DNA of 64,000 nucleotides, taken from an uncultured Alphaproteobacteria bacterium. Lineage in GTDB: Bacteria; Pseudomonadota; Alphaproteobacteria; RF32; CAG-239. The stretch spans positions 3,590 to 67,589 of the forward strand of contig CALXUQ010000002.1 in NCBI GenBank assembly GCA_944391725.1. The letters are read 5' to 3'. The position numbers and the translations under genes are program-made. Each line of letters opens with the position of its first letter. Position 1 is the first letter of the stretch. Below the pieces are notes generated by a model. That model was not told the origin of the DNA and did not search any database. It was given only the letters and a program-made list of their open reading frames with translations. Below, in pieces: positions 15,848 through 64,000 of this stretch.

Positions 15848-18800
15848 ATGGAAGACATTATAATTGAAGAAAGACCGGCTACTCCTGTTTCGACCAAAGA
15901 ACCTGCTAAAACAACAGAGACTAAGGTAAAAATTAAAGTCAAAAAACAAGGTCCCGGTGTGTTGAGCTATTTGGCTGATTGGTTTAACAAGTCTTTGATT
16001 GTGTTCTTGCTTGCGGCAATCAATTTGGTTTTGTTTTTGAGCGTGGGAAACTTAAATGCTTTTCGCGGCGCTCCATGGGAATTGGTGCCGGAAGTGTCTT
16101 ATGTCGTGCTCGGACTTTTTGTGCTATCTTGGTTGCTGATGTTTGCCGCATCTTTGGCACGGTTTATTCAAAATTTGGTTGCTGCCGCGTTGGTGGGTTT
16201 TTGGTTTGTGGTGTTGGTGAACCAGTTTGCCTTGTTTGATGCAGATTCTTTTCTGTATAATTTGGCCGTTAGTTGGTTTGGTGAGGCGGCGGCCGTTCCT
16301 TTTGCGAACTATTCACAGTGGATAGCGGCGGCGCTGATATTTTTGGTATCGTGGGTGTTTTTTACTTTTGCAGCACACAGAAAACAATTTTATTTGGTGG
16401 TGATTTTGGCCGCAATTGCCTTGATTTCGGGGGCGAAACTCTATAATCAGCGCAATAATATGTCGGATTTTGAGGAGGTATATGCCGATAAGGTGATTAC
16501 CAATAATAAACAAGGTAATAATTTTGTGTTTATTGCAGTGCCAAATTTGCCTTCTTACCGATATTTGGAAAGTATCAGCCCTAAATATAAAATAGCGAAC
16601 AAGGCTCTTAAAGCAATGTTGGGGTTGTATACAAGAAATGGCTTTGTGTTGTTTCCCAATGCTTATACTTTGGGACAAAACGAGGCGGAAAATTTGGCGC
16701 AGAGCTTAAACCTTTCGATTGATAAAGATTTGCTAAGTCGTCCGGCAAAGTATGCCGAAAATTGGGATTTTGACAGCTTGGCCGCAAAAAGAACAGAACT
16801 GAAGTCAAGCCAGATGTTGGCGACTTTTGAGAAAAACGGATATGTGCGCAAGGTGTTTGAGGATAATAGTGTCGAGCTGTGCTTTGTGGACGCTAAACCG
16901 GTGGCTAATGCTTGCTATCGACGCAAAATGGTGCCTATGGCTCTGGAGGCCGAAAAGTTTTCTTTGCGGCAACGGATTATGTTGTTGGTGGGGCAGTGGC
17001 TCGGAAGTATGGATATGTTTACTCTGAACCGGCCGCTGTATAATGTCTTGAAGTCGTTTAATGTGGCTGATGTTCCGTTTATCGGACAGGATTATGCAGA
17101 GCAGAAAGCTTTGGGCAGTGTGGAAACATTGGACAAAGTGGCGGAAGATATTGCGCAAGGAAAAGGCAATCGGGCATATGTGGTGTGGATGAATTTGCCG
17201 GGGCAAGGCTTTGTATATGATGAATTTTGTCAGCTTAAGCCGGTGGATAAATGGATTGTGAAAGGCGGAACGGAAAAAGACGAAGATAAGCAAATTAATG
17301 CTTATTTTGAACAGACGGCTTGCTTGTTTGGCAAACTCAATGATTTTATGCGGCAACTTAAGGAAAATAAGGTCGATAAAAATACTGTAGTGATTTTGCA
17401 AGGAGTGAGCGGTTTGGAAATTGCCGGATTAAAGCCGGCTGATAAATTTGAGGCCGAGAATATGGTTACAATGGCGGTTCGTGACCCCAAACATACGAAG
17501 TTTACGCTTGATAACCGTTTTTGCAGTGCCCCGAAAATTGTGCGTCAGTATTTGTTCAAGAAAGATGAGTGCCGCGAGCAAGAGGGCTTAAATCTGGATG
17601 AGAATGTTAAAAATGAAATTGTTGAAAACATTAAAAAACAAAATGTTATCTCTAATAATTCATTAAATACATTAACTGATGCCAATGAGTGGTTTAGAAA
17701 CTGGTTGCGGGCTAATTATCCGGATATGGTGATTCCGATTGAAATGCCGGTGATTGAGGAAAAAGAAGTGGCCGACAGCAAACTGCAAAATCCGCAACAA
17801 GCTAAGGAACAATTGGTTAAGCAGGAAACTAAAACAATTGCCGAAGCTGCTAAAGAAGAAGCTGAAAAAGTAAAAGCCATTAAGCTGCGGACCGATGAAA
17901 CCTCAGCTCCGGTTGTGAGTGAGGATAATAAGTCAGTTAGTGATGAAAATGCACTTTCACAACCACAAAATTTGTTGGAAAACGCTGGGATTAAGAAAGT
18001 TCCGGCACCGCAGGAGAAATCGTTAGCAACAGGTAAAACTGCTAATGATATGACCGATAAGTCGGATACTGAAAATCAGCTCGACAACACGACTGAACCT
18101 CAGGTACAAACTGAGCCGGAGGAAAAAACGGTCAAGGGCGATGAACTGGAAACATCAAATGGGGCAGAAGTACAGAATAAGCCCGAAAATGCCGATGTCG
18201 AGATGCAAAAGTCGACTGAAACACAAGCCCAAATTAAAGAGGCATCTCAACCTAACAATCTGGTAATCGGGGAGGGGCAAAAACCATTAGATCAGCAAAA
18301 TGATAAGTCGGCTGAGGAAAATCAACAGGCAGAAACCGAATCTAAGTCAGCTGTGGTTAATCAAGAACCGGAGGTAAGTGAACCCAATCGGGTTGAGGTT
18401 AGTCAGAAGCCAGAAGAAAACACGCAAAATATTGTTGGGAGTGAAGTTGCTCCGAAGGAGGCAAACACTATCACTAATGATAAGCCAGCAAATGTAGAAT
18501 CTAAAACTGCGCCAGCGGAGGAAATTGCAACCGACGAAAAAGTGGTGATTATTCCGCAAGGTGATGATAAGTCTGATAAAATTATTATTAAAATAGGTAC
18601 TGAAGAAGGCAATTTGCCGCAGGAGCAAGAAACAACACCTGCAGCCAAGTTGGAAAATTTGACGGCAGAAATCATTGCCAAAGCAGATGAAACTAAGGAT
18701 AAAGTTCAAAACGAGATCGCGGATTTGTCGGAGATTAAGGCTCCGCAGGTACCGCTTAAACCGGAAAACTTTGTGCCAGAAATTCAACGGCCTAAGCCGG

Positions 18801-18910
18801 AAATGTTAATTCCACAGCCGGTGCCACAACAAGATGAAATTGGTGAAAATGTGCTGTTTGAGCGCAATGATTCTGCACTGCCTGAACCTGATGAAACAAT
18901 ACAAAACTAA
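15848..18910 (+). CDS. large polytopic membrane protein (~5 N-terminal TM helices, a ~450-aa soluble domain, and a ~350-aa acidic E/K/Q/P-rich low-complexity tail)
   Basis: The ORF is 1020 aa. The TM block spans residues ~50-200. The architecture resembles EptA/LtaS-type enzymes (TM plus periplasmic domain), but no sulfatase catalytic motif was recognised. Confidence 0.55.
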   Translation: MEDIIIEERPATPVSTKEPAKTTETKVKIKVKKQGPGVLSYLADWFNKSLIVFLLAAINLVLFLSVGNLNAFRGAPWELVPEVSYVVLGLFVLSWLLMFAASLARFIQNLVAAALVGFWFVVLVNQFALFDADSFLYNLAVSWFGEAAAVPFANYSQWIAAALIFLVSWVFFTFAAHRKQFYLVVILAAIALISGAKLYNQRNNMSDFEEVYADKVITNNKQGNNFVFIAVPNLPSYRYLESISPKYKIANKALKAMLGLYTRNGFVLFPNAYTLGQNEAENLAQSLNLSIDKDLLSRPAKYAENWDFDSLAAKRTELKSSQMLATFEKNGYVRKVFEDNSVELCFVDAKPVANACYRRKMVPMALEAEKFSLRQRIMLLVGQWLGSMDMFTLNRPLYNVLKSFNVADVPFIGQDYAEQKALGSVETLDKVAEDIAQGKGNRAYVVWMNLPGQGFVYDEFCQLKPVDKWIVKGGTEKDEDKQINAYFEQTACLFGKLNDFMRQLKENKVDKNTVVILQGVSGLEIAGLKPADKFEAENMVTMAVRDPKHTKFTLDNRFCSAPKIVRQYLFKKDECREQEGLNLDENVKNEIVENIKKQNVISNNSLNTLTDANEWFRNWLRANYPDMVIPIEMPVIEEKEVADSKLQNPQQAKEQLVKQETKTIAEAAKEEAEKVKAIKLRTDETSAPVVSEDNKSVSDENALSQPQNLLENAGIKKVPAPQEKSLATGKTANDMTDKSDTENQLDNTTEPQVQTEPEEKTVKGDELETSNGAEVQNKPENADVEMQKSTETQAQIKEASQPNNLVIGEGQKPLDQQNDKSAEENQQAETESKSAVVNQEPEVSEPNRVEVSQKPEENTQNIVGSEVAPKEANTITNDKPANVESKTAPAEEIATDEKVVIIPQGDDKSDKIIIKIGTEEGNLPQEQETTPAAKLENLTAEIIAKADETKDKVQNEIADLSEIKAPQVPLKPENFVPEIQRPKPEMLIPQPVPQQDEIGENVLFERNDSALPEPDETIQN

Positions 18911-22124: not shown

Positions 22125-23294
22125 CTAAAGCTTGGTCCCTTCTCTGCTCGCGCTGACTTCTTGGCCGTTGATAATTGTTTTATCTAGGCTAAAATCCGAA
22201 TTGAGAATGATGAAATCGGCACAATAGCCAAGCTCAATCTTTCCGGTATTGTTTAGATTTAAGTACTTAGCGATGTTGCATGAGGTGGCCATAATCGCGC
22301 GTTCGAGCGAAATTTTCCAGTGGATGAGATTTTGGAAGCCGTCAAGCATGGAGATGTTGGAGCCGACTAAGGTATGGTCCTCTGCTCTATAGATGTAATC
22401 GTCGGCGCGGTACTCAATATTGTTTTCGCTAAATTTATTAATGCCGGTTTTGCTGTATTTTTGCGCATCGGTCACAATCATTATTTTATCATCTGGTTTG
22501 CATTTGAAGAGTATTTTCACGACGGGTGGCACAACATGATAGCCATCGGCAATCAGCTCGCAGGAAATATCATCATTTTCAAGAGTATAGCCAATGATTC
22601 CAGGATAACGGTGGTGCAGTCCGCTGACGGCATTAAAGGTATGGGTGATATGCTTGAGCCCTAACCTCGCGGCTTGCGCCATTTGCTCGTAGGTGGCGGC
22701 AGAATGTCCGGTTTGGAGTTTGATATCTTTATCCTTACAAAAAGCAACCAGTTCTTCTAGCTTATCTAATTCCGGAGCAACGGTCATGGTGAGGATTTGT
22801 CCTTGAGATGCTTCCCATAATTTTTTCATCAAATTCAAATTGATAGGGGTAATTCCGGCGGCTGACTGCCCTCCTCTCTTTTCTAGGGACAAAAACGGTC
22901 CTTCAAGGTGAATGCCCAAAATTTTGGCGCCGCTTTCTTTGCTCTTTGCGTTGACAATTGCTTGAATATCCCCAATAATTTCTTCATCTTGAGAGCTTGA
23001 ACGCGAGATGGTGGGAATAAATGAGGTTACGCCATAAGAGGCCAGCTTTTGTGAAGCTTCTAAAACATCCTGACTAGACTGATTTTGAAAACTATAGCCG
23101 CCAATGCCGTGGATATGAGAATCTATAAATCCGGGAATCAAATATTTACCGGCTAAATCTGTTTTGTTATCAATATGCTGAAACTTGGTTGCATCAGCTT
23201 CAATGGCCGTAATATTGCCATCTTCTACCAGCAGAGCTCCGAATTGGAGCCGGTTTTGATAAAAAATGTTGGCGTTATAATATAATTGTTTCAT
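22125..23294 (-). CDS. nagA: N-acetylglucosamine-6-phosphate deacetylase
   Basis: FIDSHIHG, LEGPFLS, HSAAT and HTFNAV are metal-dependent amidohydrolase motifs of NagA. Confidence 0.8.
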   Translation of the reverse strand: MKQLYYNANIFYQNRLQFGALLVEDGNITAIEADATKFQHIDNKTDLAGKYLIPGFIDSHIHGIGGYSFQNQSSQDVLEASQKLASYGVTSFIPTISRSSSQDEEIIGDIQAIVNAKSKESGAKILGIHLEGPFLSLEKRGGQSAAGITPINLNLMKKLWEASQGQILTMTVAPELDKLEELVAFCKDKDIKLQTGHSAATYEQMAQAARLGLKHITHTFNAVSGLHHRYPGIIGYTLENDDISCELIADGYHVVPPVVKILFKCKPDDKIMIVTDAQKYSKTGINKFSENNIEYRADDYIYRAEDHTLVGSNISMLDGFQNLIHWKISLERAIMATSCNIAKYLNLNNTGKIELGYCADFIILNSDFSLDKTIINGQEVSASREGTKL

Positions 23295-23926
23295 TTCTTT
23301 TCGTCGGCAGTAGATGTTTTTTCTTTTGCAATATTTGCTTGACTTTGTTCAATAATCATTTGTTTTTTGCGGTTAAGAGTTTGTTTATCCCAACAATAGG
23401 CCCAATAAAAAATAAGTCCGCTAATAAGAAAAAATTTAGTTAATCCCCAAGGGATATACATGCAGACTATGGTGATGATGAAAGTATCTATAATCATCAT
23501 TATTCGCCAAAATTTTTGGCGTTTGATAAAGTCATATCCAATGCGGTATTCGCCAAAGTAAATGCTGAATAGGAAGATAATGAAACCACTGTATATGACG
23601 CCAATTGTTTGATAGTCATCAAGATGATATTTTTTCTGTCCGACGTAGTATGTAATAATCATTATAATGATGATGCTTATAAGCATTTTTATTGTTTGTT
23701 TGCTATTGTATATTTTCTCTTCTTGTTCGGGAGTTAGGATGTTAATTTCTTCCAGCGGAATTTTGCGGAAGGCTTGTTTCATCATTACCGGTATGCTGAC
23801 GAATACAAATAGCAAAAAGCCAATTGCCGTAAAGATTAATGGAGCATGACTTGCTAAACAAGCAAAGAAATATACCGCTCCGATGTTGCCGAGTGCAACC
23901 CACCAGGTGCTTTGTTCGTTTTTCAT
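23291..23926 (-). CDS. hypothetical polytopic membrane protein
   Basis: It has 5-6 hydrophobic helices and overlaps the nagA start by 4 nt. No motif was recognised. Confidence 0.5.
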   Translation of the reverse strand: MKNEQSTWWVALGNIGAVYFFACLASHAPLIFTAIGFLLFVFVSIPVMMKQAFRKIPLEEINILTPEQEEKIYNSKQTIKMLISIIIIMIITYYVGQKKYHLDDYQTIGVIYSGFIIFLFSIYFGEYRIGYDFIKRQKFWRIMMIIDTFIITIVCMYIPWGLTKFFLISGLIFYWAYCWDKQTLNRKKQMIIEQSQANIAKEKTSTADEKK

Positions 23927-36577: not shown

Positions 36578-37432
36578 TTAGTTTGATGAGAGTTGTGTAT
36601 ATCGTTTATTTATATATGATTTTAGTTTTTTTTCAACGTCCTTCTGCATTTTAGCATCGGGATTATATGTTTTTAAGATATTGAGCATGTTGTCAAAGCA
36701 GTTGAGTTTGTCGCAAAAAACAAATGAGGGCAAATAGTTGAGGTCGTAAACCCAGCTTAGCAGATTGAGTATGCGGTCGCAGGCGGTTTTGACTTTTTGT
36801 AAATCTATGGCTTTTTCGGCCATGAAATCTGCAAGAATGGCGGGCTGTATCCTCATATCTTTTGTTTCATCGGCTTCGGGACAAAAAAGCTTTTTCATGC
36901 GCTCGGTTTGGGTGGTAATAAGATAAAAATTAGCAATTTTGTCGGCATCGCGCACCAGTTTTAAGATTTCGGTAACCGAATCTTTAATGTTTCCTAACTT
37001 TTGATAGTCCTCAGAGCTATAATAATCTTCAATCAATTTGTTGTGATATTTTACCGGAATGACAATAAAGGGGGTGTTATATTCCGGATTTTTCTCAAGA
37101 TATTGGGCGCCAAATTGCCCATGGTCAAACTTGGAGCCGACAAAATGTCCTTGCTTTTGCTGATATAATTCGCAGATTTCGCGAAACCGGCCGATGTCAT
37201 GAAATAAGTAAGCTAATTTGGCATAACGCAAATATGCCTGCGGCTGATGCTGGTAATATATTTCGTGTTTCATTATGTAATTGCCGGCGCCGAGAACCTG
37301 CAGTGAATGTTTTATTTTTTCTTCGGCCATCAATTTATGAAAAGGCGATGATTGTACTTTTTTAATGCAGTTTTCATATTCTTGATATAAAAGTTTCTCT
37401 TCGTGTTGACAATCCAGCATTGTTTTCTCCAT
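36578..37432 (-). CDS. HD-domain phosphohydrolase
   Basis: It has H...LFHDIGR (HD motif) and a downstream D. The start is placed at MEKTMLDCQ (ATG 37432) with a GGAG RBS. Confidence 0.6.
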   Translation of the reverse strand: MEKTMLDCQHEEKLLYQEYENCIKKVQSSPFHKLMAEEKIKHSLQVLGAGNYIMKHEIYYQHQPQAYLRYAKLAYLFHDIGRFREICELYQQKQGHFVGSKFDHGQFGAQYLEKNPEYNTPFIVIPVKYHNKLIEDYYSSEDYQKLGNIKDSVTEILKLVRDADKIANFYLITTQTERMKKLFCPEADETKDMRIQPAILADFMAEKAIDLQKVKTACDRILNLLSWVYDLNYLPSFVFCDKLNCFDNMLNILKTYNPDAKMQKDVEKKLKSYINKRYTQLSSN

Positions 37433-37853
37433 TAGCTTTATCAAAGCAGATTTTCGGCTTGATGGATAGTGTTGATTGCGCTTTGTGCACAAAAAAAGCT
37501 TTCTCGTTTCACAACGAAAAAGCTTTTAATCACTACACAGAATAGAGACATGAACTTATACCGCTTTTTCCCAAAGGGGCAATCAGTTGTGTGTTAACAA
37601 ATGCTCGAAACAACGATAAACTAAGTTACAATCGTATGGATAAAATGTATAAAAGACATGAATTGTTAACACTATTCTCTATTAAGCTTAGCTACGCATA
37701 ATAAGTATAAATACAAAAACACAAATCGTATTAAACTGCTTGCTATATAAGTCTATTTTTTCTATTTGTCAATTAAAATTCTAAAAATTTTGGTAAAAAA
37801 TTAAGGATTGGATGATATAAATGCACTAATATTGTGTAAGTCTGAGGTGTATT

Positions 37854-51087: not shown

Positions 51088-51873
51088 CTAAAACTCGACA
51101 ATCAGATTATCATAAGCCGGACGAACATAGTCCGGAGTTAATTGGTTGACATTATCATAGTCACATTCGTTTGTCATGTGATTAATCAAAACTTTTTGCG
51201 GTTTAATTTGCTCAATCACGGCCATTATCTCATCTAATCCGGCGTGTTGGACCTCGCCTTTAATGGTGGTGAGAGGAATGGTCATCAGTTTGGGCTGTTT
51301 TGGTATCATTTTGTAGGCACTGCCGGCTAAAGACTTGAAATCGGCAATATGTACATACTCACCATCATCAAAAACATAGCCCAAGCACTCGGGGCAATGG
51401 TCCTTGAGTTTTATCGGCGTAATCTTAACCCCTTTGATGTAAAACGGGTGGTTGGGTTTGACAATATTGGGCACTAAACTCGGACGGCGCATGACATTGT
51501 TGGTCTTTTTGACGGTGGCAATCAGATATTCAAATCTTCTTTTAATGGCCTTATAGGTTAGTTTTCCGGCGTAAAAGTTGAGGCTTTGGCGGCTGATGCG
51601 GTTAATTTCACGCAGGTCATCAATGCCGTGCAAATGGTCGGCATGAGAATGAGTATACAAAACACCGTCAATGTTGCGAATGTTTTGATTAATCAACTGC
51701 GTACGCAAATCCGGACTGGTGTCTATCAGCAGTTTTACTCCGTTATACTCTAAGTAAGTTGTAGTTCTTAATCTATTATTTTTTAAGTTTTCGGGATTGC
51801 AGTCGCCCCAGCCGCGGCCTAAAGACGGAACGCCCATGGCTGCTCCGCAACCCAAAATAATCAGTCGGTTCAT
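51088..51873 (-). CDS. MBL-fold metallo-hydrolase (PhnP/ElaC-like)
   Basis: The HxHxDH motif YTHSHADHLHGID is present. Confidence 0.7.
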   Translation of the reverse strand: MNRLIILGCGAAMGVPSLGRGWGDCNPENLKNNRLRTTTYLEYNGVKLLIDTSPDLRTQLINQNIRNIDGVLYTHSHADHLHGIDDLREINRISRQSLNFYAGKLTYKAIKRRFEYLIATVKKTNNVMRRPSLVPNIVKPNHPFYIKGVKITPIKLKDHCPECLGYVFDDGEYVHIADFKSLAGSAYKMIPKQPKLMTIPLTTIKGEVQHAGLDEIMAVIEQIKPQKVLINHMTNECDYDNVNQLTPDYVRPAYDNLIVEF

Positions 51874-57889: not shown

Positions 57890-57979
57890 GGAGAGGTGGC
57901 AGAGTGGTTTAATGCAGCGGTCTTGAAAACCGTCGAGGGGGCGACCCCTCCCAGAGTTCGAATCTCTGCCTCTCCGCCA
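57890..57979 (+). tRNA. tRNA-Ser (anticodon TGA), long variable arm, CCA encoded
   Basis: The acceptor is GGAGAGG/CCTCTCC, the anticodon loop CTTGAAA, the long extra arm CGAGGGGGCGACCCCTC and the T-arm CAGAG-TTCGAAT-CTCTG. Confidence 0.85.
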
Positions 57980-57983
57980 TTAT

Positions 57984-58017
57984 AAAAAAGACGACCTTTA
58001 GGGTCGTTTTTTTTATA
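57984..58017 (+). terminator. terminator after tRNA-Ser (AAAAAAGACGACCtttaGGGTCGTTTTTTTT)
   Basis: A perfect hairpin is followed by T8. Confidence 0.7.
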
Positions 58018-58027
58018 ATTAGAGATA

Positions 58028-58152
58028 TGGATTGATTCGAACTCTGGGAGAAGAGTTCGACTACCAGCGAAAGGCGGACGAGAGTACGCCGGTGAGCTTT
58101 AAGCTCATGAGCGCCAGTGCAACTCAAGCAGCGCGCAGAGTAATCTCTGCCT
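58028..58152 (+). repeat. tRNA-Ser-associated composite repeat: inverted T-arm copy, hairpin, 75-nt core, then an 11-nt direct copy of the tRNA-Ser T-loop/acceptor strand
   Basis: Positions 58036-58049 (ATTCGAACTCTGGG) are the exact reverse complement of tRNA-Ser CCCAGAGTTCGAAT. Positions 58067-58141 are 95% identical to 1093-1167. Positions 58142-58152 (ATCTCTGCCTC) copy tRNA positions 57961-57971. Confidence 0.75.
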
Positions 58153-58175
58153 CAACTATAATGCAAATTGCTCAC

Positions 58176-58892
58176 TTATCTTAGGTGTTCTATGCCGGTC
58201 TTGACCACTTTGGCCGGATTGCCCGCAATTATGGTGTTTTCTTCTTTGAATTTTCTGCTCACTACACTTCCCATCGCAACGATTGTTTGATTGGGAATGG
58301 AAGCATTCTTGGTAAATTGACTGTTTTGGCAGATCCAACAGTTATCACCTATCATTACTTCGTATTTTTGATTGTTGATAATTTTATTGCTAGCTTTGTC
58401 TATAATTGTATGTCCATCAGCGGTCCAAATAGTGATGTTTTTGGAAAAAAGTGCCCGATTACCAATCCAACACGAGGTTTCATTTCTTATAACTAATTCT
58501 AATCCCCAAATACTTGCTTCTTCCCCTATATGACAATGTTGGTTTTGTCCGTCGCAACATTTAATTAATGTATTGCGAATTTTTCCGTTGCGACCAATAT
58601 CTATTTGGCAATTATTGCCGGTGCATTTTATGATTGAATTTTCAAATATACACGGAAATCCAATCTTGATGAGGTTGTTTGTTCCCCTTAAGATTATTTT
58701 TAGTCCTTTTATACGGCCAAATCGCAGCCTTTTTTCTCCTTTGGAGCTTACTAAAAAAATTTGGTTGTGAGAACCGCTAATAAGGTACATGCCGGGAATG
58801 AGTGAAGTTAAGTGTTTTAGTTTGTGTCGAAAATTGCGACGTTGTGCTTGGGGAATGAATATACTCAATAAATTGAAAATCAGTTTAAGCAT
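58176..58892 (-). CDS. hexapeptide-repeat (left-handed beta-helix) acyltransferase
   Basis: Imperfect hexad repeats run through the C-terminal half (IGDNCWICQNSQFTKNASIPNQTIVAMGSVV). The gene is AT-rich relative to flanking core genes. Confidence 0.6.
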   Translation of the reverse strand: MLKLIFNLLSIFIPQAQRRNFRHKLKHLTSLIPGMYLISGSHNQIFLVSSKGEKRLRFGRIKGLKIILRGTNNLIKIGFPCIFENSIIKCTGNNCQIDIGRNGKIRNTLIKCCDGQNQHCHIGEEASIWGLELVIRNETSCWIGNRALFSKNITIWTADGHTIIDKASNKIINNQKYEVMIGDNCWICQNSQFTKNASIPNQTIVAMGSVVSRKFKEENTIIAGNPAKVVKTGIEHLR

Positions 58893-58949
58893 TGGTTTCC
58901 TCCATCCAAAATAAAATGAAACCCACCAATTTTTGGTGGGCGGATGTTC

Positions 58950-59085
58950 AGAAACCGTAATACAATTAGAACGGCTCGACCTATTTGGCTCGTAGCCTTA
59001 TTCAGCCGACATCCGTCCGTGACAGAAATCGGCATGATTGTTTAAAGTCGGCATGCTCTGCGACTAATTGTATTAAGGGTTCTGA
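58950..59085. repeat. imperfect inverted repeat pair (~22 bp arms) enclosing ~85 bp
   Basis: TCAGAAACCGTAATACAATTAG (58950-58971) matches CTAATTGTATTAAGGGTTCTGA (59064-59085); the 12-nt core TAATACAATTAG is a perfect palindromic match. Confidence 0.55.
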
Positions 59086-59344
59086 CGCCCTGAACTTAAT
59101 ATTTTTAAGTCTGATTTGAACTTATTCTAAAAATTTTATCAATTCAAGTGATTTTTAATTGTGACATTAATTAATTGTTTGGAAAAATTATAACTCAGGT
59201 GTGTTCTTGTATAATATAAAGTTTTTTGTTGTATAAAACTTAATTATATTCTGGAAATTTGTGTGGTTAGTTGTTATAACCAAGTTAGTGTTTGGCTTTT
59301 TTTGTATAAAATTAGCTATGCTCTGGACTAATTGAGGATTATAT

Positions 59345-60199
59345 ATGACTAAAATTTCTGTACTTATGCCGGTGTATAAAACTCCTGAAACTTATTTGCG
59401 GGAGGCGATTGAAAGTATCTTAAATCAATCCTATAGTGATTTTGAACTGGTAATTTTAGATGATTGTCCTGATGATAATCGGGAACAAATCGTCAAATCT
59501 TATCGTGATAAACGTATAAAATATTTGCAAAATGAAAAAAATCTCGGAATTACGCCTAGTCGGAACAAATTGATTGCTCTTGCAAAAGGAGAATATTTGG
59601 CCATATTTGACCATGATGATATCTCTTTGCCGGACAGGCTTGCCAAACAAGCGGCCGTACTAGATGCTAACCCTGATATCGGGGTGGTCGGTTGCCAAGT
59701 GGAATTTTTTCAGAATCAATCTAGAATTAGTAAGTATCCTCAAAATGACCAAGATATCAAAGTTGCTTTGATGGCAACTTGCGCGCTTATTCATCCGGGG
59801 GCAATGCTCCGAAAAAAAGTGCTGACCGATAATCATATTGGCTATGAACAAGAGTTTTCTCCGTCTGAAGATTATCGCTTGTGGTGTAGGTTGATTCCAT
59901 TTACCAAATTTTACAATATTCCCGAAGTGTTACTGCGTTATCGGGACCATGATTGTAATACTTCTAAAATTCAAAAAGCTAAAATGGCAGCGGCAACTCG
60001 GGCAATTTTTGCACAGGTGCGTTCTGAAAATCCGGTTTTATACAATCGTTTCTTGATGGAGGCAACCAAAGTTTATCAATTTAATCTATTTGGGATTATC
60101 CCGATTGTGACAATTAAAATTCAGTTGATGCGTGCAAAAGTTTATTTATTCGGTGCTTTGTTGATTGCTTCTTGTAAGTGGTCGTGTAAAATCAGGTAA
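59345..60199 (+). CDS. family 2 glycosyltransferase
   Basis: ISVLMPVYKTPETYLREAIESILNQSYSDFELVILDDCPDD is the GT2 N-terminal signature with the DxD region. Confidence 0.8.
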   Translation: MTKISVLMPVYKTPETYLREAIESILNQSYSDFELVILDDCPDDNREQIVKSYRDKRIKYLQNEKNLGITPSRNKLIALAKGEYLAIFDHDDISLPDRLAKQAAVLDANPDIGVVGCQVEFFQNQSRISKYPQNDQDIKVALMATCALIHPGAMLRKKVLTDNHIGYEQEFSPSEDYRLWCRLIPFTKFYNIPEVLLRYRDHDCNTSKIQKAKMAAATRAIFAQVRSENPVLYNRFLMEATKVYQFNLFGIIPIVTIKIQLMRAKVYLFGALLIASCKWSCKIR

Positions 60200-60275
60200 G
60201 CATCATGATTGAAATTTTTACTATCAGACCTTGTGATAAAAAAAGGCTTCCTTCAAGGAAGCCTTTTTCTTATGC

Positions 60276-61670
60276 TTAGAACTTGCGAGCCGGTACACGG
60301 TTGCGCCAGTTGGCCTCAATTTTTTCGAGCGAAATACCTTTGGTTTCGGGAACGTAAAAGAAGACAAACAACAGGCACAAGACCGAAATCACTCCGAAAA
60401 TCCAGAATGTGTACCCCTCGCCTATCTTGGCTGTTAGTATCGGGAATGAGGATACCACAATCAGGTTGAAAGTGAAATTGGCAACCGTACAAACTCCCAT
60501 GGCAAAGCCGCGAATCTTTAAGGGCAGTACTTCTGAAACCATAATCCAACCAATCGGCCCTAAGCTGAAGGCAAAGCAAGCAATGTACACAACTACACTA
60601 CCAACAGCCACCCAGCGCAGGCTCTCGCCTAAAACATCGCCATAGCGGAAAGCAGTGCCTAAGCAGATGAGCGCAATCAGCATACCCCACAAGCCGGCAT
60701 AGAGCAAAGGTTTGCGTCCCCAGCGGTCGGCAAAGAAAATGGCCACCAAGGTCATCACAAAATTGACGGCACCGACACCGATGGTGGCATAGATTGCGCT
60801 GGTATTGGAGGCAAAACCGGCATTTTGGAAAATGGTGGCGGTGTAATATATAATCGTATTAATACCGGTGCAAATCTGGGAAAACATCATCCCGACGCCG
60901 ACAAAAATCGGCATCAACATCCAGCTTTGAAAGCTAATCTTGTTATTGCTACTGCTTTTTTCGGCAGCCAGATTTTCTTTAATTTCTTTTATGTGTTTGG
61001 TTACGCTTTGGTCAGGTTCAATTTTCTTAAACACGGCTTTGGCTTCGTCTTCGCGTTGTTTGCTCAACAGCCAGCGAGGAGTGTCTTCCAAGAAAATAAT
61101 ACCAACTAACAAGACCAAGGCCGGCAAAACCCCTGCTCCCATCATCCAGCGCCAGTTATACAAGGCTTCGGCAAAAGCGCCGTTGACCAAGTATGAGAAC
61201 AATATTCCGGCGGTAATTGCCAGTTGGAATAGTGATACCAACATACCGCGAATGCGCTGCGGGGCAATTTCTGATAAGTAAACCGGTACGACAAAGTTTA
61301 CCATACCAACGGCTACACCTATTAACATTCGAGAAATGACCAGCCAGGTGATATCGGGTGAAAATGCGCACATAAATGATGCAATAATAAATATTAATGC
61401 CGTGGCGACAATCACCTTCTTGCGGCCGTATAAGTCGGCTAAAAATCCGTTTCCGGCGGCTCCGATGATAGCACCGACAATGGCGGCGCTTACCAATAAG
61501 CTTTGCTGATTTTCGGCCAAGTTCCAATCGGATTTGATAAAGAGCATGGCGCCTGAAATTACACCCATATCGAATCCGGATAATAATCCGCCCAATGAGG
61601 CAACTATGGTGATGACATATAGCCAAAAGTGCTTCTTTAGCGTTGGGGTTGAGGAAGTGCGTATTTCCAT
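60276..61670 (-). CDS. MFS transporter, sugar porter family
   Basis: It has 12 TM helices, GRKKVIVATALIF (the G-R-[KR] loop), the PETKG motif and the ...DTPRWL... motif (PESPRWL-like). Confidence 0.8.
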   Translation of the reverse strand: MEIRTSSTPTLKKHFWLYVITIVASLGGLLSGFDMGVISGAMLFIKSDWNLAENQQSLLVSAAIVGAIIGAAGNGFLADLYGRKKVIVATALIFIIASFMCAFSPDITWLVISRMLIGVAVGMVNFVVPVYLSEIAPQRIRGMLVSLFQLAITAGILFSYLVNGAFAEALYNWRWMMGAGVLPALVLLVGIIFLEDTPRWLLSKQREDEAKAVFKKIEPDQSVTKHIKEIKENLAAEKSSSNNKISFQSWMLMPIFVGVGMMFSQICTGINTIIYYTATIFQNAGFASNTSAIYATIGVGAVNFVMTLVAIFFADRWGRKPLLYAGLWGMLIALICLGTAFRYGDVLGESLRWVAVGSVVVYIACFAFSLGPIGWIMVSEVLPLKIRGFAMGVCTVANFTFNLIVVSSFPILTAKIGEGYTFWIFGVISVLCLLFVFFYVPETKGISLEKIEANWRNRVPARKF

Positions 61671-61800
61671 GATCTAACCTTTCTATAATTGTTTGGATAG
61701 CATATATTATACTTATTCATTTAATGTTCTTCAACCCATAATGTATATAATAATAAGGCAAAGAGTAATATATCACCCTTTGCCTTGTGAGTAATTATTG

Positions 61801-62310
61801 TTAGTCCCAGACAATGTTGTCCAATTCTTCTACAGTTGTGGCTGCTTCAACCTGAGTTTTGAGTGTGGTTGCTTTTTCGTGGCAGCGGTTAGACCATTCT
61901 GCTAAGGCCACGACTAAGCCCATCAGTTCTTGCGCGGTCAAGTCAATCGTTGAGTTATCCTGACAAGTCCAGGTAATGGTTGGTGTTTCTTCGCTCATGA
62001 CAGATAGTTGCATGGCTTGAGCCGCACAGGTCATGCGGATACAAGATATTTCATCACTGTCAAATACCTTGCCCATATACTCAAAACCACCCTGCTCTGC
62101 CGCATCGCGCGCCTTGTTAATCTCGGCTCGTTTAGCAAGTTTTAGTTCCTCAAGCGGTTGCGTGGGACAAGTACTTTCAAAATAGTACCTGCCGTCATAG
62201 CCTTGCACGATTTTTTCTTCGGCTTGAAGAGCATTTTCATCATACTTATATCCGGCAAAGCTTGAAATTGTGCCATCATCATTAGCTATATAATAAATTT
62301 CTTCATTCAT
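61801..62310 (-). CDS. phage tail-fibre assembly/chaperone-like protein (DUF4376-type)
   Basis: It lies immediately downstream of a tail-fibre gene. Its central region KLAKRAEINKARDAAEQGGFEYMGKVFDSD matches the pattern I associate with DUF4376/Tfa proteins. Confidence 0.5.
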   Translation of the reverse strand: MNEEIYYIANDDGTISSFAGYKYDENALQAEEKIVQGYDGRYYFESTCPTQPLEELKLAKRAEINKARDAAEQGGFEYMGKVFDSDEISCIRMTCAAQAMQLSVMSEETPTITWTCQDNSTIDLTAQELMGLVVALAEWSNRCHEKATTLKTQVEAATTVEELDNIVWD

Positions 62311-62322
62311 GTGTTTAACTCC

Positions 62323-64000
62323 TTATACATAGGGATATAAAATGACGGTTGAAACGCTGGTAAACTCTATTTTATCGCCAGATTTTACAGGATAAGCCTC
62401 GGATGACTTTGTACCATCGAGCCCAGTCCATGTAGCTACCGTGACGGAATTAATTTTCAAATTGCCATTGTGAAAACCGCCGCCAGTGTTTTCATTTATC
62501 ACCAGCAATCCGTTTGTTGATGCGGTTGCCCCAGAGCTTATGGTTATTCCGGCAGAATAATTTACTTGTGCACCATAGTTTCTGACCCATTGGGTGGTAG
62601 CAATCTGAGTAGATTTATCTGTAGCAACCGGCGGTTTGATGCTATATGCATAACCGCTATTATCAATTCTTATTCCTCCAATGGTGGAACCGTTCTGCAC
62701 ATTTGCAAATGATGCAGAATTATCCCCATTATAATATTGTATTTTCGCATTGTTGTTTGTGTTTGCAGGGTCAACACATTGCATAATACTTACACCGTTA
62801 GGATTGCCAACAGTAATATTGCTAGTAAAAATCTTTTCGCCTTCAATGGTTTCATTGCCTGTTTTGTGGACTACCTCTTGGTCATCAGCAAGTTTAACCG
62901 GTAATTTAGGATTAAACGAAGTCACTCGACCGGTTGAGTCTGCGTTTAATGTACCAAATAACAAAAATTGTGCTGTTTTTATTCCGTTAAAATAGTTGTA
63001 ATTTTCTTGATTATTATGATAATAATTTTGACTATAAGTTAATGTTAATACGCTAGTTCCAGTAAAGTAAGCCAAGATTCCGTTATCTAAAGATACACCA
63101 TTGTTTATGGTTGTTACTTTCGTTGTCATAAACTTAGCATTATTTAAACTACCATCAGTATTTCTGCCGCTTGGTATAAGCCCTTCGACACCTGGTAATG
63201 AAAATATTGTTCTGCCGATATAGCCAAAGCCATTGAAGACTTGGTCGATTGAGGAAAATCCCGTGCCATTGGTGCTGAAAAGACCTAAGGGAAATGAAAT
63301 ATTACCACTTGTCCAATTTGAACCACCATCAGTAGTCCTTTTAATTAGATTATTTTTGGTATCATACCAGTACAAAAAGTTAGTACCAGATGGAGCGTCT
63401 GTACCTGAAAATACTTGAGTGGATAAAATTCTTTCCAATCTACCATCAATGTAAAATACAAATAAATTATTGTAATTTGTTGTATCTGTTAAGGATATAT
63501 CTGAATTAACTAAGATTTCCTTGAACACACCTGCACCATTTGGTATATACACCTTACTTCCTGCTTTTAACGTCAGCGTACCATCAACAAGCTCCAACAT
63601 AATGTCTTGAGGTATCTTAGTGATACAGTTGGTGATTTGGGTTTCGTTTAATGTGCCGTCAGTCACCGCTTTAGCATTTTCGGCCCAATATTTAGCACTT
63701 CCACTGGGCTGTTCTTGGATTGTACCAACCGCCCACTTGTGGGCTTCTTCTTTGCTAGTGGTAGCATTTTGTTCATGATTTTGAACTAAATTTTCTTTGT
63801 TGATTACATTTTGCTCAGCAGCCAAAACGGTTGTTTGGGTGTCTATCATCAGCTGTTCTAAATCGTCATACGCCAAATTTGAGTTGCGCAGAGAGATGCC
63901 GTTCTCGGCCCAGACAATGGCTTTGCCGATTTCGGGCTCGGGAAGGTTAACGCTTTGAGCGCTGCCTGAATATGGCGGAAAACTTACACTACGTCCGATT
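62323..64000 (-). CDS. phage-type tail fibre protein, 5'-truncated by the window edge (the listed ORF starts at an in-frame TTG, and the reading frame stays open to position 64000)
   Basis: The N-terminal region ...NATTSKEEAHKWAVGTIQEQPSGSAKYWAENAKA resembles the conserved fibre-shaft start of P2/Mu-type fibres. A Gly/Ser/Thr/Asn-rich beta-rich C-terminus follows. There is no in-frame stop between 63876 and 64000. Confidence 0.6.
   Translation of the reverse strand, partial: IGRSVSFPPYSGSAQSVNLPEPEIGKAIVWAENGISLRNSNLAYDDLEQLMIDTQTTVLAAEQNVINKENLVQNHEQNATTSKEEAHKWAVGTIQEQPSGSAKYWAENAKAVTDGTLNETQITNCITKIPQDIMLELVDGTLTLKAGSKVYIPNGAGVFKEILVNSDISLTDTTNYNNLFVFYIDGRLERILSTQVFSGTDAPSGTNFLYWYDTKNNLIKRTTDGGSNWTSGNISFPLGLFSTNGTGFSSIDQVFNGFGYIGRTIFSLPGVEGLIPSGRNTDGSLNNAKFMTTKVTTINNGVSLDNGILAYFTGTSVLTLTYSQNYYHNNQENYNYFNGIKTAQFLLFGTLNADSTGRVTSFNPKLPVKLADDQEVVHKTGNETIEGEKIFTSNITVGNPNGVSIMQCVDPANTNNNAKIQYYNGDNSASFANVQNGSTIGGIRIDNSGYAYSIKPPVATDKSTQIATTQWVRNYGAQVNYSAGITISSGATASTNGLLVINENTGGGFHNGNLKINSVTVATWTGLDGTKSSEAYPVKSGDKIEFTSVSTVILYPYV

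What the first reader, a model, noticed from the sequence alone, without database searches (positions are those of the whole stretch)
58176..64000. AT-rich accessory block downstream of tRNA-Ser: acyltransferase, GT2, sugar-porter MFS, and a phage-type tail fibre plus DUF4376 assembly protein
By eye the genes from 58176 onward are noticeably more AT-rich and N/I/K-rich than the peptidoglycan and replication genes to the left. They start directly after a tRNA and its repeat scar. The block combines surface-polysaccharide-type genes (a hexapeptide acyltransferase and a GT2) with a tail-fibre gene whose 5' end lies outside the window, followed by a Tfa-like chaperone. This is the hallmark of a phage, tailocin or GTA receptor-binding module. 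It may be a prophage or tailocin end, or a gene-transfer-agent tail-fibre locus (these are common in alphaproteobacteria).
Basis: partly seen in the sequence, partly recalled or inferred. Interest (0 to 1): 0.6.

Follow-up and report, generated by a model that had tools for sequence, protein, structure and literature searches.

The report
Stand-alone phage tail-fibre cassette in chromosome
A gut alphaproteobacterium keeps just two phage genes, a T7-type tail fibre and its helper protein, as an intact and tightly regulated cassette with no other phage genes in the ~8 kb I could read beyond it, beside strain-variable surface-sugar genes; it is not the end of a prophage.

Summary
The five gene calls are correct, but the block is not one AT-rich island and not the end of a prophage or tailocin. 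It has three parts.

1. A strain-variable acetyltransferase + GT2 cassette lies next to tRNA-Ser. It is AT-rich and absent from sister species.
2. A native sugar-porter MFS gene has host-like GC.
3. A two-gene phage-derived cassette holds a podovirus (T7 gp17-type) tail fibre and a DUF4376 chaperone.

To the right of the fibre, same-species contigs show only core genes (p207…hflX, hfq, trkA, dusB). More distant relatives have an empty site where p207 abuts MFS.

The cassette is intact at the same site in three species. The virion-anchor domain is under strong purifying selection. The distal parts are swapped with co-occurring phage fibres, and there are three alleles of a 56-aa hypervariable segment.

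Just outside the window the fibre is preceded by a leader: palindrome, sigma-70-like promoter, invariant GTCACTTGGG hairpin and intrinsic terminator. This leader is more conserved than the flanking genes. It clearly recurs at one other chromosomal locus type and weakly at two more, and is absent from the phages examined.

Best reading: a retained, conditionally expressed fibre supplied in trans to a podovirus-like particle, analogous to RcGTA's off-cluster fibre. The partner particle was not found.

The parts
57890..57979 (+). tRNA-Ser (anticodon UGA). This is the landmark beside which the variable sugar-gene cassette sits.
   Evidence: ARAGORN; Rfam tRNA 58 bits. Conserved at the same place in sister species and in the outgroup.
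57948..58050 (.). 49-nt inverted repeat made of the tRNA 3' end and its reverse copy, around a terminator-like hairpin. A weak direct partial copy of the tRNA end follows at 58142-58156.
   Evidence: the repeat finder I1, 80% complementary. The 13/15 direct match is near chance expectation. Sister species instead carry a clean direct repeat CTCTCCGCCATTAC about 190 nt downstream of the tRNA.
58176..58892 (-). Left-handed beta-helix (hexapeptide) sugar O-acetyltransferase-like gene. Part of the strain-variable, AT-rich glycan cassette.
   Evidence: Hexapep E 1.3e-4. WbbJ/NeuD/WcaF-like hits, all below family cut-offs. GC 0.365, z -2.6. Present, absent or fragmentary among strains.
58893..59344 (.). 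AT-rich divergent intergenic region between the acetyltransferase and GT2 genes. It contains a 22-nt inverted repeat pair (58948-58969 / 59064-59085).
   Evidence: the repeat finder I3, 91% complementary. There is only a sub-threshold Rfam hit (sRNA-Xcc1, 27 bits against a gathering score of 53).
59345..60199 (+). Family-2 glycosyltransferase. Part of the strain-variable glycan cassette.
   Evidence: PF00535 E 1.1e-32. GC 0.378, GC3 0.333. Other strains carry a 420-aa gene plus two GT2 genes here; sister species carry none.
60240..60268 (.). Perfect 14-bp hairpin between the convergent GT2 and MFS genes (bidirectional terminator-like).
   Evidence: the repeat finder I12, 100% complementary. 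The same hairpin is called terminator-like in L001.
60276..61670 (-). Sugar-porter MFS transporter. This is a native chromosomal gene, not part of either insert.
   Evidence: PF00083 E 3.4e-120; TIGR00879 396 bits. GC 0.468, z +1.1. It directly follows p207 in relatives that lack the fibre.
61748..61793 (-). Terminator-like hairpin that closes the fibre-chaperone cassette.
   Evidence: the repeat finder I6. Equivalent to L001 10525-10556, with 14 pairs plus a T-rich tail.
61801..62310 (-). DUF4376 protein: tail-fibre assembly chaperone (Tfa-like).
   Evidence: PF14301 E 1.9e-24, above the cut-off. PHROG tail families. 78.6% identical to the chaperone of phage contig L100 and 74% to that of L091. 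DUF4376 proteins act as fibre chaperones in Alteromonas phage V22 and Campylobacter CJIE1 (PMC10579305, PMC7882524).
62323..64000 (-). Tail fibre, residues ~118 to the end. The first ~117 residues, most of the T7-type anchor domain, and the regulatory leader lie just beyond the window edge.
   Evidence: The frame is open to 64000. The full-length gene is in L001-L008. N-terminus matches phrog_1640 tail, E 5.7e-26. The PDB profile search and Foldseek hit podovirus fibre anchors, including T7 gp17. 235 viral fibre/tailspike hits in BFVD.
62930..63110 (-). Hypervariable cassette inside the fibre's high-confidence beta-rich middle domain (~56 aa). At least three alleles exist within the species.
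   Evidence: Alleles are 23-33% identical while their flanks are 93-100% identical. The blastn gap between the window and L001 falls at ~62956-63128. The domain has pLDDT above 90.

Best explanation
The region holds two independent accessory inserts around a native MFS transporter gene.

(a) Glycan cassette. Next to tRNA-Ser lies a strain-variable cassette (acetyltransferase + GT2) that presumably alters a surface polysaccharide.

(b) Fibre cassette. Between the host genes p207 and MFS lies a self-contained ~2.8-kb phage-derived unit. Its order is leader, then a T7/podovirus-type tail fibre, then a DUF4376 chaperone, then a terminator.

Shown:
- The fibre cassette was inserted once, in the ancestor of at least three species of uncultured gut Alphaproteobacteria, and has been kept intact since.
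- The N-terminal virion-anchor domain evolves under strong purifying selection.
- The distal receptor-binding parts and the chaperone are repeatedly exchanged with fibres of phages found in the same gut metagenomes.

Inferred mechanism:
- The cassette is normally silent. Its strong sigma-70-type promoter is followed within ~70 nt by a conserved hairpin and an intrinsic terminator.
- A factor acting on the palindromic operator, or on the GTCACTTGGG hairpin by antitermination, lets transcription read through.
- The chaperone then helps the fibre trimerise.
- The fibre docks through its T7-type anchor onto a podovirus-like particle encoded elsewhere: a GTA-like element, a resident prophage or an infecting phage. 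This sets which cell-surface glycan the particle binds.

Functionally this is like the off-cluster tail-fibre locus of RcGTA. It is not homologous to it.
For: No phage neighbours and an empty site:
- Same-species contigs show hfq-hflX, five host genes, then fibre, DUF4376 and MFS.
- In L025, L026, L029 and L030, p207 is followed directly by MFS.

Retention:
- Intact orthologues sit at the same site in species B (L011, L094-96) and species C (L012, L097, L128-130).

Selection:
- The anchor (residues 1-170) has dN 0.10-0.14 with saturated dS between species.
- Within the species dN/dS is 0.06-0.44 outside the hypervariable cassette.

Exchange with phages:
- The middle domain is 71-79% identical to fibres P0009, P0015, P0025 and P0035 (only P0009's phage context, contig L091, was examined) but only 46-51% to sister-species orthologues.
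- The C-terminus is 74% identical to fibre P0027, whose genomic context was not examined.
- The chaperone is 74-79% identical to phage chaperones.
- Phage contigs L091, L092, L093 and L100 carry the same fibre + DUF4376 pair inside phage genomes.

Anchor type:
- Foldseek and the PDB profile search hit tail-fibre N-termini of LME-1, Carin-1, Kp7, PhiM1 and T7 gp17.

Leader:
- It reads TTGACT-17-TATAGC with an extended -10, then a hairpin, then a terminator.
- It is 91-94% (A-B) and 80-85% (A-C) identical, against 77-85% for flanking genes and 69-77% for other intergenic regions in the A-B comparison.
- 7 of 11 terminator pairs show compensatory changes.
- A covariance model finds it in the untrained contig L134 at 72.7 bits. 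It is strong in L135 and L132, which were in the training set, and weak but correctly placed in L167/L168 and L101. It finds none in the window, in the phage contigs or among the IMG/VR candidates.

Recurrence:
- Orphan fibres with a small downstream gene lie next to glycan genes in L101, L135/L132 and L167/L168.
- RcGTA rcc00171 is a precedent.
Against: - No partner particle was found. I could not scan the rest of these genomes.
- No phage in the collections has an anchor closer than ~55-62% identity.
- Expression, read-through and virion incorporation are all untested.
- Intact open reading frames could in principle be maintained by repeated gene conversion from infecting phages rather than by selection for the host.
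- The sugar-gene cassette is absent from sister species that keep the fibre. In this locus the linkage between fibre and glycan genes is therefore secondary.
- Fibre alleles do not track the glycan-cassette type in the few strains available.
- The promoter and the antitermination reading rest on consensus matches and architecture only.
Confidence: 0.5

Rival explanations
1. It is the end of a prophage, or a tailocin, whose remaining structural genes lie just beyond the window.
For: The fibre and chaperone are genuine phage genes. The fibre is AT-rich.
Against: - The ~8 kb beyond the fibre, read in eight same-species contigs, holds only host genes up to hflX, hfq, trkA and dusB.
- There is no integrase and no att duplication.
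- An empty site shows the insert is only two genes.
- The T7-type anchor is a podovirus feature, which rules out a contractile or flexible tailocin.
Confidence: 0.03
2. It is a functionless remnant of an ancient prophage, like the stf/tfa fragments of cryptic prophages in E. coli K-12. It simply has not decayed yet, or is kept intact only by gene conversion from infecting phages that use it as a recombination reservoir.
For: - The distal domains are mosaics shared with phage fibres.
- Segments within the species have dS up to ~1, which indicates imported DNA.
- No partner particle was found.
Against: - The part that is not exchanged with phages, the anchor (80-84% identical among the three species, at most 62% to any non-orthologous fibre; the closest ones lie on contigs too short to classify as phage or chromosomal), is the most conserved protein segment, with dN ~0.1 and saturated dS.
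- All alleles in all three species are full length.
- The non-coding leader is more conserved than the neighbouring genes and recurs at other loci.
- A neutral remnant should not preserve a promoter, operator and terminator.
Confidence: 0.17
3. It is a defence or interference device. The host makes a fibre whose conserved anchor competes for the docking sites of infecting podoviruses, so that progeny carry the wrong fibre, or spread of the phage through kin is limited. Expression is triggered by the phage's own late-gene antiterminator.
For: - A conserved anchor combined with a promoter-proximal terminator fits induction by a phage factor.
- Phages with related fibres co-occur in the same samples.
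Against: - There is no match to any PADLOC defence model.
- An arms race should diversify the anchor, but it is the conserved part.
- A decoy would not need a diversifying, phage-exchanged receptor-binding region or a dedicated chaperone.
Confidence: 0.12
4. It is the tail-fibre locus of an RcGTA-family gene transfer agent, that is, a true member of that family.
For: - The host is an alphaproteobacterium.
- The fibre is off-cluster and next to polysaccharide genes, as rcc00171 is.
- It evolves fast and exchanges with phages, as reported for rcc00171.
Against: - There is no DUF2793 domain, which is the hallmark of Rcc00171.
- The anchor is the podovirus T7 type, whereas RcGTA is siphovirus-like (own knowledge plus PMC7296036 title and abstract).
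- No RcGTA head-tail genes are present in the 64-kb window.
- From my own knowledge, these gut lineages are not among the clades known to carry RcGTA-like clusters.
Confidence: 0.04

Closest known systems
Off-cluster host-recognition loci of the Rhodobacter capsulatus gene transfer agent (rcc00171 tail fibre; rcc01079/rcc01080 head spikes)
   Same: - A fibre gene stands alone in the chromosome, away from any head-tail cluster.
- It lies beside extracellular-polysaccharide genes.
- It evolves faster than core genes and exchanges with phage homologues (PMC5026251).
   Different: - There is no sequence relationship: Rcc00171 has DUF2793, this fibre has a T7-type anchor.
- This locus has a DUF4376 chaperone and a promoter-hairpin-terminator leader.
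- No producing particle is known for it.
T7 gp17-type tail fibres of podoviruses (PF03906 N-terminal domain; structures 7EY9, 7BOZ, 9EFK, 8CK1)
   Same: - The N-terminal anchor fold is shared.
- A helical shaft is followed by beta-rich distal domains.
- Evolution is modular and mosaic.
   Different: - It is encoded as an orphan in a bacterial chromosome rather than beside adaptor and nozzle genes.
- Pfam PF03906 is only sub-threshold by sequence (E 0.035).
Tail-fibre plus Tfa remnants of cryptic prophages (e.g. E. coli K-12 stfR/tfaR, stfE/tfaE; own knowledge)
   Same: A fibre plus an assembly chaperone left in a chromosome, able to recombine with incoming phages.
   Different: - Here there are no other prophage remnants at all.
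- The insert has precise two-gene boundaries.
- It is conserved across species with purifying selection on the anchor.
- Its regulatory leader is shared with unrelated chromosomal sites.
Phage late-gene antitermination units (lambda PR'-tR' with Q; nut/boxB with N; HK022 put) (own knowledge)
   Same: A strong promoter is followed closely by a conserved hairpin and an intrinsic terminator, ahead of a virion gene.
   Different: - There is no sequence similarity to any described element and no Rfam match.
- No antiterminator was identified.
- The unit controls a single orphan fibre operon, not a whole late operon.

Membership tests
T7-type podovirus tail fibre | N-terminal domain with the gp17-type anchor fold, which docks on the adaptor/nozzle | tested here: met
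   Foldseek: LME-1 9efk E 4e-9, Carin-1 8ck1 E 4e-7, T7 7ey9/7boz E 2e-3 to 6e-3, all at probability 1.00. PDB profile search hits at E 3e-21 and 9e-16. phrog_1640 E 5.7e-26.
T7-type podovirus tail fibre | Pfam PF03906 match above the gathering score | tested here: not met
   PF03906 E 0.035, 14.2 bits against a cut-off of 25.2. Some homologues do carry the precomputed PF03906 mark.
T7-type podovirus tail fibre | Encoded within a phage structural module, next to nozzle/adaptor or internal virion proteins | tested here: not met
   Here it is flanked by host genes. Relatives in L091, L092, L133 and L136 do sit in such modules.
DUF4376 / Tfa-like tail-fibre chaperone | PF14301 domain above the cut-off, with the gene immediately downstream of the fibre | tested here: met
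   86.6 bits against a cut-off of 25. There is a 12-nt gap after the fibre stop codon. The same pairing occurs in the phage contigs.
DUF4376 / Tfa-like tail-fibre chaperone | Needed for folding or trimerisation of the cognate fibre | not testable with these tools
   Shown only for other members of the family (PMC10579305, PMC7882524).
Prophage / tailocin | Further structural genes (capsid, portal, terminase, tube, sheath, baseplate, tape measure) adjacent | tested here: not met
   None within ~8 kb on the fibre's upstream side or within the 64-kb window on the other side. Regions beyond 10 kb to the right were not seen.
Prophage / tailocin | Integrase and flanking att direct repeats | tested here: not met
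   There is no integrase in the annotated neighbourhood. No second copy of the tRNA 3' end flanks the block.
RcGTA-family tail fibre (Rcc00171) | DUF2793 (PF10983) domain | tested here: not met
   The Pfam scan at E up to 0.1 lists only BppL_N and Phage_T7_tail.
RcGTA-family tail fibre (Rcc00171) | Co-regulated with, and incorporated into particles made by, a GTA head-tail cluster elsewhere in the genome | not testable with these tools
   The rest of the genome could not be scanned. The window itself has no such cluster.
tRNA-associated genomic island (acetyltransferase/GT2 cassette) | Lies next to a tRNA 3' end, has deviant composition, and is variable among strains | tested here: met
   It starts 197 nt after tRNA-Ser. 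GC z-scores are -2.2 and -2.6. At least four gene-content variants exist among strains, and it is absent from species B and C.
tRNA-associated genomic island (acetyltransferase/GT2 cassette) | Integrase plus direct repeats bounding the island | tested here: not met
   There is no integrase, only an inverted repeat and a 13/15 partial copy. Relatives carry a short att-like direct repeat that bounds only ~190 nt.
Diversity-generating retroelement target | Template repeat and reverse transcriptase nearby, with adenine-specific variation | tested here: not met
   No repeat of the variable segment occurs in L001 4500-12100. No reverse transcriptase is in the neighbourhood. The alleles differ throughout and by indels.
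Antitermination-controlled phage late unit | Promoter followed by a conserved RNA hairpin and an intrinsic terminator upstream of the gene | tested here: met
   (7 of 11 terminator pairs compensatory). The same layout occurs in L134, L135, L132, L167 and L101.
Antitermination-controlled phage late unit | A cognate antiterminator or regulator, and demonstrated read-through | not testable with these tools
   No candidate factor was identified. There is no Rfam family match.

The most novel reading that the evidence does not exclude
Gut and rumen Alphaproteobacteria carry a previously undescribed class of mobile 'fibre cassettes'. Each consists of a palindromic operator, a promoter, a GTCACTTGGG hairpin, one or two terminators, a T7-type fibre and a chaperone. 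They are inserted at several chromosomal sites, preferentially beside surface-glycan genes. Together they would form the distributed host-recognition regulon of an unrecognised podovirus-like gene-transfer particle, or a host-controlled system that re-targets phage particles. Fibre specificity and the cell's own glycan receptor would then be inherited together.
Probability: 0.3. Interest if true: 0.8.

Novelty: new variant of a known kind. Interest (0 to 1): 0.55.

Why it matters
Orphan fibre genes are usually written off as prophage debris. This one shows three signs of function. It has been retained across species with selection on the virion-docking domain. It is in active exchange with the local phage fibre pool. 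It has a dedicated regulatory leader that recurs at other chromosomal fibre loci.

If the fibre is loaded in trans onto a particle, that would point to a podovirus-type gene-transfer or phage-retargeting system in an abundant, uncultured group of human-gut Alphaproteobacteria. It would also offer a concrete handle for finding the rest of the system: use the leader motif as a regulon probe.

The repeated linkage to glycan genes would bear on how receptor and receptor-binding protein co-evolve within one genome.

Tried and rejected
- **Fibre scan of species-representative genomes:** nothing found. The exact-peptide patterns missed the 62%-identical orthologues, which turned up later through hflX.
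- **Exact-sequence look-ups of window proteins for organism names:** no names returned.
- **Look-up of the window's own 68-kb contig through the acetyltransferase:** returned only short contigs.
- **Second protein search with the 170-aa anchor alone:** only 8 short fragments; uninformative.
- **IMG/VR searches for a phage with a close anchor:** the best match was 37% identical.
- **IMG/VR searches for the leader:** the 26 pattern matches scored at most 21 bits with the covariance model, so they are chance matches.
- **Rfam on the leader and on the tRNA-proximal region:** nothing above threshold.
- **PADLOC on the fibre, the chaperone, both glycan-cassette genes and the five upstream genes:** no defence family.
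- **DGR idea:** no template repeat.
- **Fold match for the distal fibre domains:** the high-confidence middle domain (240-480) has no significant PDB match. Weak hits at E ~0.1 to carbohydrate-binding and jelly-roll modules cannot be relied on, so a lectin fold is neither shown nor excluded.
- **Co-variation of fibre allele with glycan-cassette type:** not seen in the few strains available. Allele type 1 occurs with two different cassettes.
- **GGCGGTAG (ops-like) octamer in the L132 leader:** absent from the other leaders, so treated as coincidence.

Full report
**What is in the window.**
- ARAGORN and Rfam place tRNA-Ser(UGA) at 57890-57979.
- To its right lie five genes:
  - a hexapeptide-repeat acetyltransferase-like gene, 58176-58892(-);
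  - a GT2 glycosyltransferase, 59345-60199(+);
  - a sugar-porter MFS transporter, 60276-61670(-);
  - a DUF4376 protein, 61801-62310(-);
  - a large ORF from 62323 whose frame stays open to the window edge.
- The acetyltransferase call rests on sub-threshold hits: Hexapep 21.9 bits against a cut-off of 27, and WbbJ/NeuD/WcaF-type matches confined to the C-terminal repeats.
- The other four calls are solid.

**Composition.**
- The block as a whole is modestly AT-rich, GC 0.400 against 0.430. Only 2.9% of equal-sized windows to the left are as low.
- It is not uniform. The acetyltransferase (0.365), GT2 (0.378) and fibre (0.389, GC3 0.336) lie 2-2.7 sd below the 50 genes to the left.
- The MFS gene (0.468) and DUF4376 (0.445) are host-like.
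- The 'repeat scar' is a 49-nt inverted repeat of the tRNA 3' end around a terminator-like hairpin, plus a 13/15-nt direct partial copy at 58142-58156 that is near chance level.

**Organism.**
- Using HflX from a same-species contig as an anchor, the nearest genomes are all uncultured gut or rumen Alphaproteobacteria bins: BRZ_CI__bin121 at 89%, UMGS241 at 80%, CAG:495 at 71%, and many Hadza, deer and sheep MAGs.
- The rest of the window is ordinary chromosome, including an Rnf complex, ABC transporters, TldD/PmbA, ribosomal protein S4 and peptidoglycan enzymes. It contains no phage or GTA structural genes.

**What lies to the right.**
- The DUF4376 protein is found, 100% identical, on 21 public contigs.
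- Eight of these give the neighbourhood: dusB, trkA, a HAD hydrolase, hfq, hflX, five genes of 117, 211, 236, 241 and 207 aa, then the fibre (671-675 aa), DUF4376 and MFS.
- The five intervening genes have no phage structural signature. They are a lipoprotein-like protein, membrane-protein paralogues and a weak CTP_transf_1-like membrane protein.
- p117, p241 and p207 are present in relatives that lack the fibre.

**A two-gene insertion with an empty site.**
- In four more distant genomes (L025, L026, L029, L030; HflX ~68%), p207 is followed after ~115 nt by the MFS gene.
- The fibre-DUF4376 pair is present at exactly this position in the window species (A) and in two others: species B (L011, L094-96) and species C (L012, L097, L128-130).
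- The MFS gene is therefore native, and the fibre cassette is a ~2.8-kb insert.
- Species B and C have no acetyltransferase/GT2 genes between MFS and tRNA-Ser.
- Within species A that interval varies between strains:
  - GT2 + acetyltransferase;
  - a 420-aa gene + two GT2 genes;
  - a 420-aa gene + two GT2 genes + acetyltransferase;
  - variants with acetyltransferase fragments.
- The finding thus merges two independent accessory inserts.

**The fibre is a podovirus-type receptor-binding protein.**
- Residues 11-125 match PHROG 1640 (tail) at E 5.7e-26. PF03906 (T7 tail fibre N-terminus) matches only weakly.
- A profile of 68 homologues hits the N-termini of solved tail fibres and tailspikes.
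- An AlphaFold model has mean pLDDT 74, and above 90 for residues 240-480.
- Foldseek matches its N-terminal domain to the fibre anchors of LME-1, Carin-1, Kp7/Kp9, PhiM1, P-SCSP1u and T7 gp17, all podoviruses.
- The model also matches 235 viral fibre or tailspike models in BFVD.
- The distal domains have no significant PDB match.
- DUF4376 proteins are documented fibre chaperones (PMC10579305, PMC7882524).

**Real phages carry the same pair.**
- Contigs of 32-40 kb from the same metagenome series encode the pair inside phage genomes.
- One type runs: a 2,400-aa ART-PolyVal protein, the fibre, an extra 212-aa gene in L092 only, DUF4376, DUF1353, then lysis genes, with GapR elsewhere on the contig.
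- Another type runs DNA polymerase A, then the fibre (followed in L093 by an extra 211-aa gene), then DUF4376.
- Their GC (~0.38) matches that of the chromosomal fibre.

**Evolutionary pattern.**
- Between species, the anchor (residues 1-170) has dN 0.10-0.14 with saturated dS.
- The distal parts have dN 0.3-1.0.
- The anchor is 80-84% identical among the three species but at most 55-62% identical to any non-orthologous fibre in the top 120 hits.
- The middle domain is 71-79% identical to fibres P0009, P0015, P0025 and P0035 (only P0009's phage context was examined) but only 46-51% to sister-species orthologues. The C-terminus is 74% identical to fibre P0027, whose genomic context was not examined.
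- The chaperone is 74-79% identical to phage chaperones.
- Within species A, neighbouring genes are 98-100% identical between strains while the fibre is 89-97% identical.
- The variation concentrates at residues ~300-510. There are three alleles of a 56-aa cassette that are 23-33% identical to one another.
- The segments around that cassette show dS up to ~1, which indicates imported DNA.
- All alleles are full length.
- This is the signature of a working receptor-binding protein: a fixed anchor and exchangeable tips. It is not the signature of a decaying pseudogene.

**A conserved regulatory leader, just outside the window.**
- The 143 nt between p207 and the fibre start codon contain, in order:
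  - a palindrome, AGGAATAAAATCCT, abutting the -35;
  - TTGACT-17-TATAGC with a TG-extended -10;
  - a hairpin beginning with the invariant GTCACTTGGG, about 7 nt after the -10;
  - a 12-bp intrinsic terminator;
  - the ribosome-binding site.
- The leader is 91-94% identical between species A and B and 80-85% between A and C.
- Flanking genes are 77-85% identical at the nucleotide level and other intergenic regions 69-77% in the A-B comparison (the one intergenic region also measured for A-C, DUF4376-MFS, is 58%).
- 7 of 11 terminator pairs carry compensatory changes across six sequences.
- There is no Rfam match.

**The leader recurs at other orphan fibre loci.**
- A metagenome scan with the anchor alignment returned fibres in other chromosomal contexts.
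- L135 and L132 run: autotransporter or lipoprotein, fibre, a 148-aa gene, DUF1796, PMT_2, GT2, YdjC, GtrA. They carry the same palindrome, promoter, GTCACTTGGG hairpin and two terminators.
- A covariance model built from five leaders (three from the hflX locus plus L135 and L132) finds the untrained contig L134 at 72.7 bits, E 7e-14.
- The model scores weakly, but at exactly the right place, upstream of two further orphan fibres:
  - L167/L168, from rumen Alphaproteobacteria MAG GCA_017412085.1: NrdD/NrdG, tRNA-Gly, fibre, a 101-aa gene, GT2, GT2, a sugar-nucleotide enzyme;
  - L101: GH77, fibre, a 101-aa gene, UDP-glucose dehydrogenase, a methyltransferase, a 991-aa GT2.
  Both show the layout of promoter, short GGGA…TCC hairpin and terminator.
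- The model finds nothing in the window, in phage contigs L091-93 and L100, in the prophage-context fibres L133 and L136, or among the IMG/VR candidates.
- In this sample the leader is therefore a mark of stand-alone chromosomal fibre cassettes.
- Three of the four locus types abut glycan-biosynthesis genes, and the fourth (this one) lies one native gene (MFS) away from them in species A only. I judge this non-random, but I did not test it formally.

**Interpretation.**
- Shown:
  - a precise two-gene phage-derived insert;
  - vertical retention in three species;
  - purifying selection on a podovirus-type docking domain;
  - ongoing exchange of the distal modules with phages;
  - a constrained promoter-hairpin-terminator leader shared with other orphan fibre loci.
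- Inferred:
  - the cassette is held off by its promoter-proximal terminator, its operator, or both;
  - it is switched on by a trans-acting factor;
  - the fibre, folded with its chaperone, is mounted on a podovirus-like particle encoded elsewhere.
- The closest functional precedent is RcGTA. Its essential fibre gene rcc00171 sits alone, downstream of EPS genes, evolves fast and exchanges with phages (PMC5026251).
- Membership in that family fails, because there is no DUF2793 and the anchor type differs.
- Rivals that remain are a neutral remnant kept intact by phage-driven gene conversion and an interference or decoy role. Both are disfavoured by the conservation of the anchor and the leader. 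Neither is excluded, because no partner particle was found and nothing is known about expression.

**Limits.**
- Only about 10 kb on the fibre side could be read.
- Whole genomes of these species could not be scanned.
- Promoter and terminator calls are pattern-based.
- The structure was predicted as a monomer. Residues 485-570 are unreliable.
- The number of strains is too small to test linkage between fibre alleles and the sugar-gene cassette.

Noticed in passing
L094 11380-11697, L012 19140-19456, L025 18745-19057 (region corresponding to window ~57980-58180): In sister species and in an outgroup, a clean direct repeat of the tRNA-Ser 3' end (CTCTCCGCCATTAC) lies ~190 nt downstream of the tRNA. 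It bounds a conserved ~200-nt segment, like an att scar of a long-lost integrative element. In the window species this segment has been replaced.
   Followed up: partly
L001 15700-16480 (same-species contig): ARAGORN finds no tRNA-Ser in L001. The ~190-290-nt segment that follows the tRNA in the window appears two or three times there, and 32 nt of the tRNA are missing. This is either an assembly artefact or a local duplication/deletion at the island junction.
   Followed up: no
window 58930-59090: A 22-nt inverted repeat pair, 94 nt apart, lies in the divergent acetyltransferase/GT2 intergenic region. It overlaps a sub-threshold match to the integron-associated sRNA-Xcc1 (27 bits, E 0.046). 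No clear attC features were seen by eye.
   Followed up: partly
window 23291-23926 and 36578-37492: Two other genes are as AT-rich as the accessory genes (GC 0.347, z -3.3; and 0.378, z -2.1). Low GC alone therefore does not single out the reported block.
   Followed up: no
window 15848-18910: A 1,020-aa ORF with no Pfam hit on record sits directly upstream of an ABC-transporter permease and ATPase.
   Followed up: no
L091 2601-9983 and L092 2695-9984: The phages that share fibre modules with this chromosome encode 2,430-2,460-aa proteins with an ART-PolyVal domain immediately upstream of the fibre. These are probably giant ejected or internal virion proteins. The phages also carry GapR, an alphaproteobacterial nucleoid protein.
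   Followed up: no
L093 7300-13526 and L100 7300-13012: In a second phage type the fibre-DUF4376 pair sits directly after DNA polymerase A, among replication genes and away from any visible structural module. The pair may behave as a movable cassette in phages too.
   Followed up: no
L132 9926-9975: The second leader hairpin of this orphan fibre contains GGCGGTAG, the core of the RfaH ops element. It is absent from the other leaders, so I treated it as coincidence.
   Followed up: partly
L131 1-1857: A short metagenome contig carries a 64%-identical anchor followed after only ~330 codons by a DUF4376-like gene. This may be a 'mini-fibre' variant. The leader is cut off by the contig end.
   Followed up: no
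L001 5702-7226 versus L094 5001-5711: The window species has two tandem paralogous membrane-protein genes (236 and 241 aa, ~28% identical) upstream of p207, where the sister species has one.
   Followed up: no
window 62323-63876: The ORF lister reports the fibre as a complete 517-aa ORF starting at a TTG codon. Reading the sequence shows no in-frame stop up to the window edge, so the listed start is an artefact.
   Followed up: yes
window 51088-51873: A metallo-beta-lactamase-fold gene next to tatD and holB carries a precomputed hit to the Anti-Pycsar Apyc1 family as well as to Lactamase_B. The neighbours are housekeeping genes, so it is probably housekeeping too.
   Followed up: no
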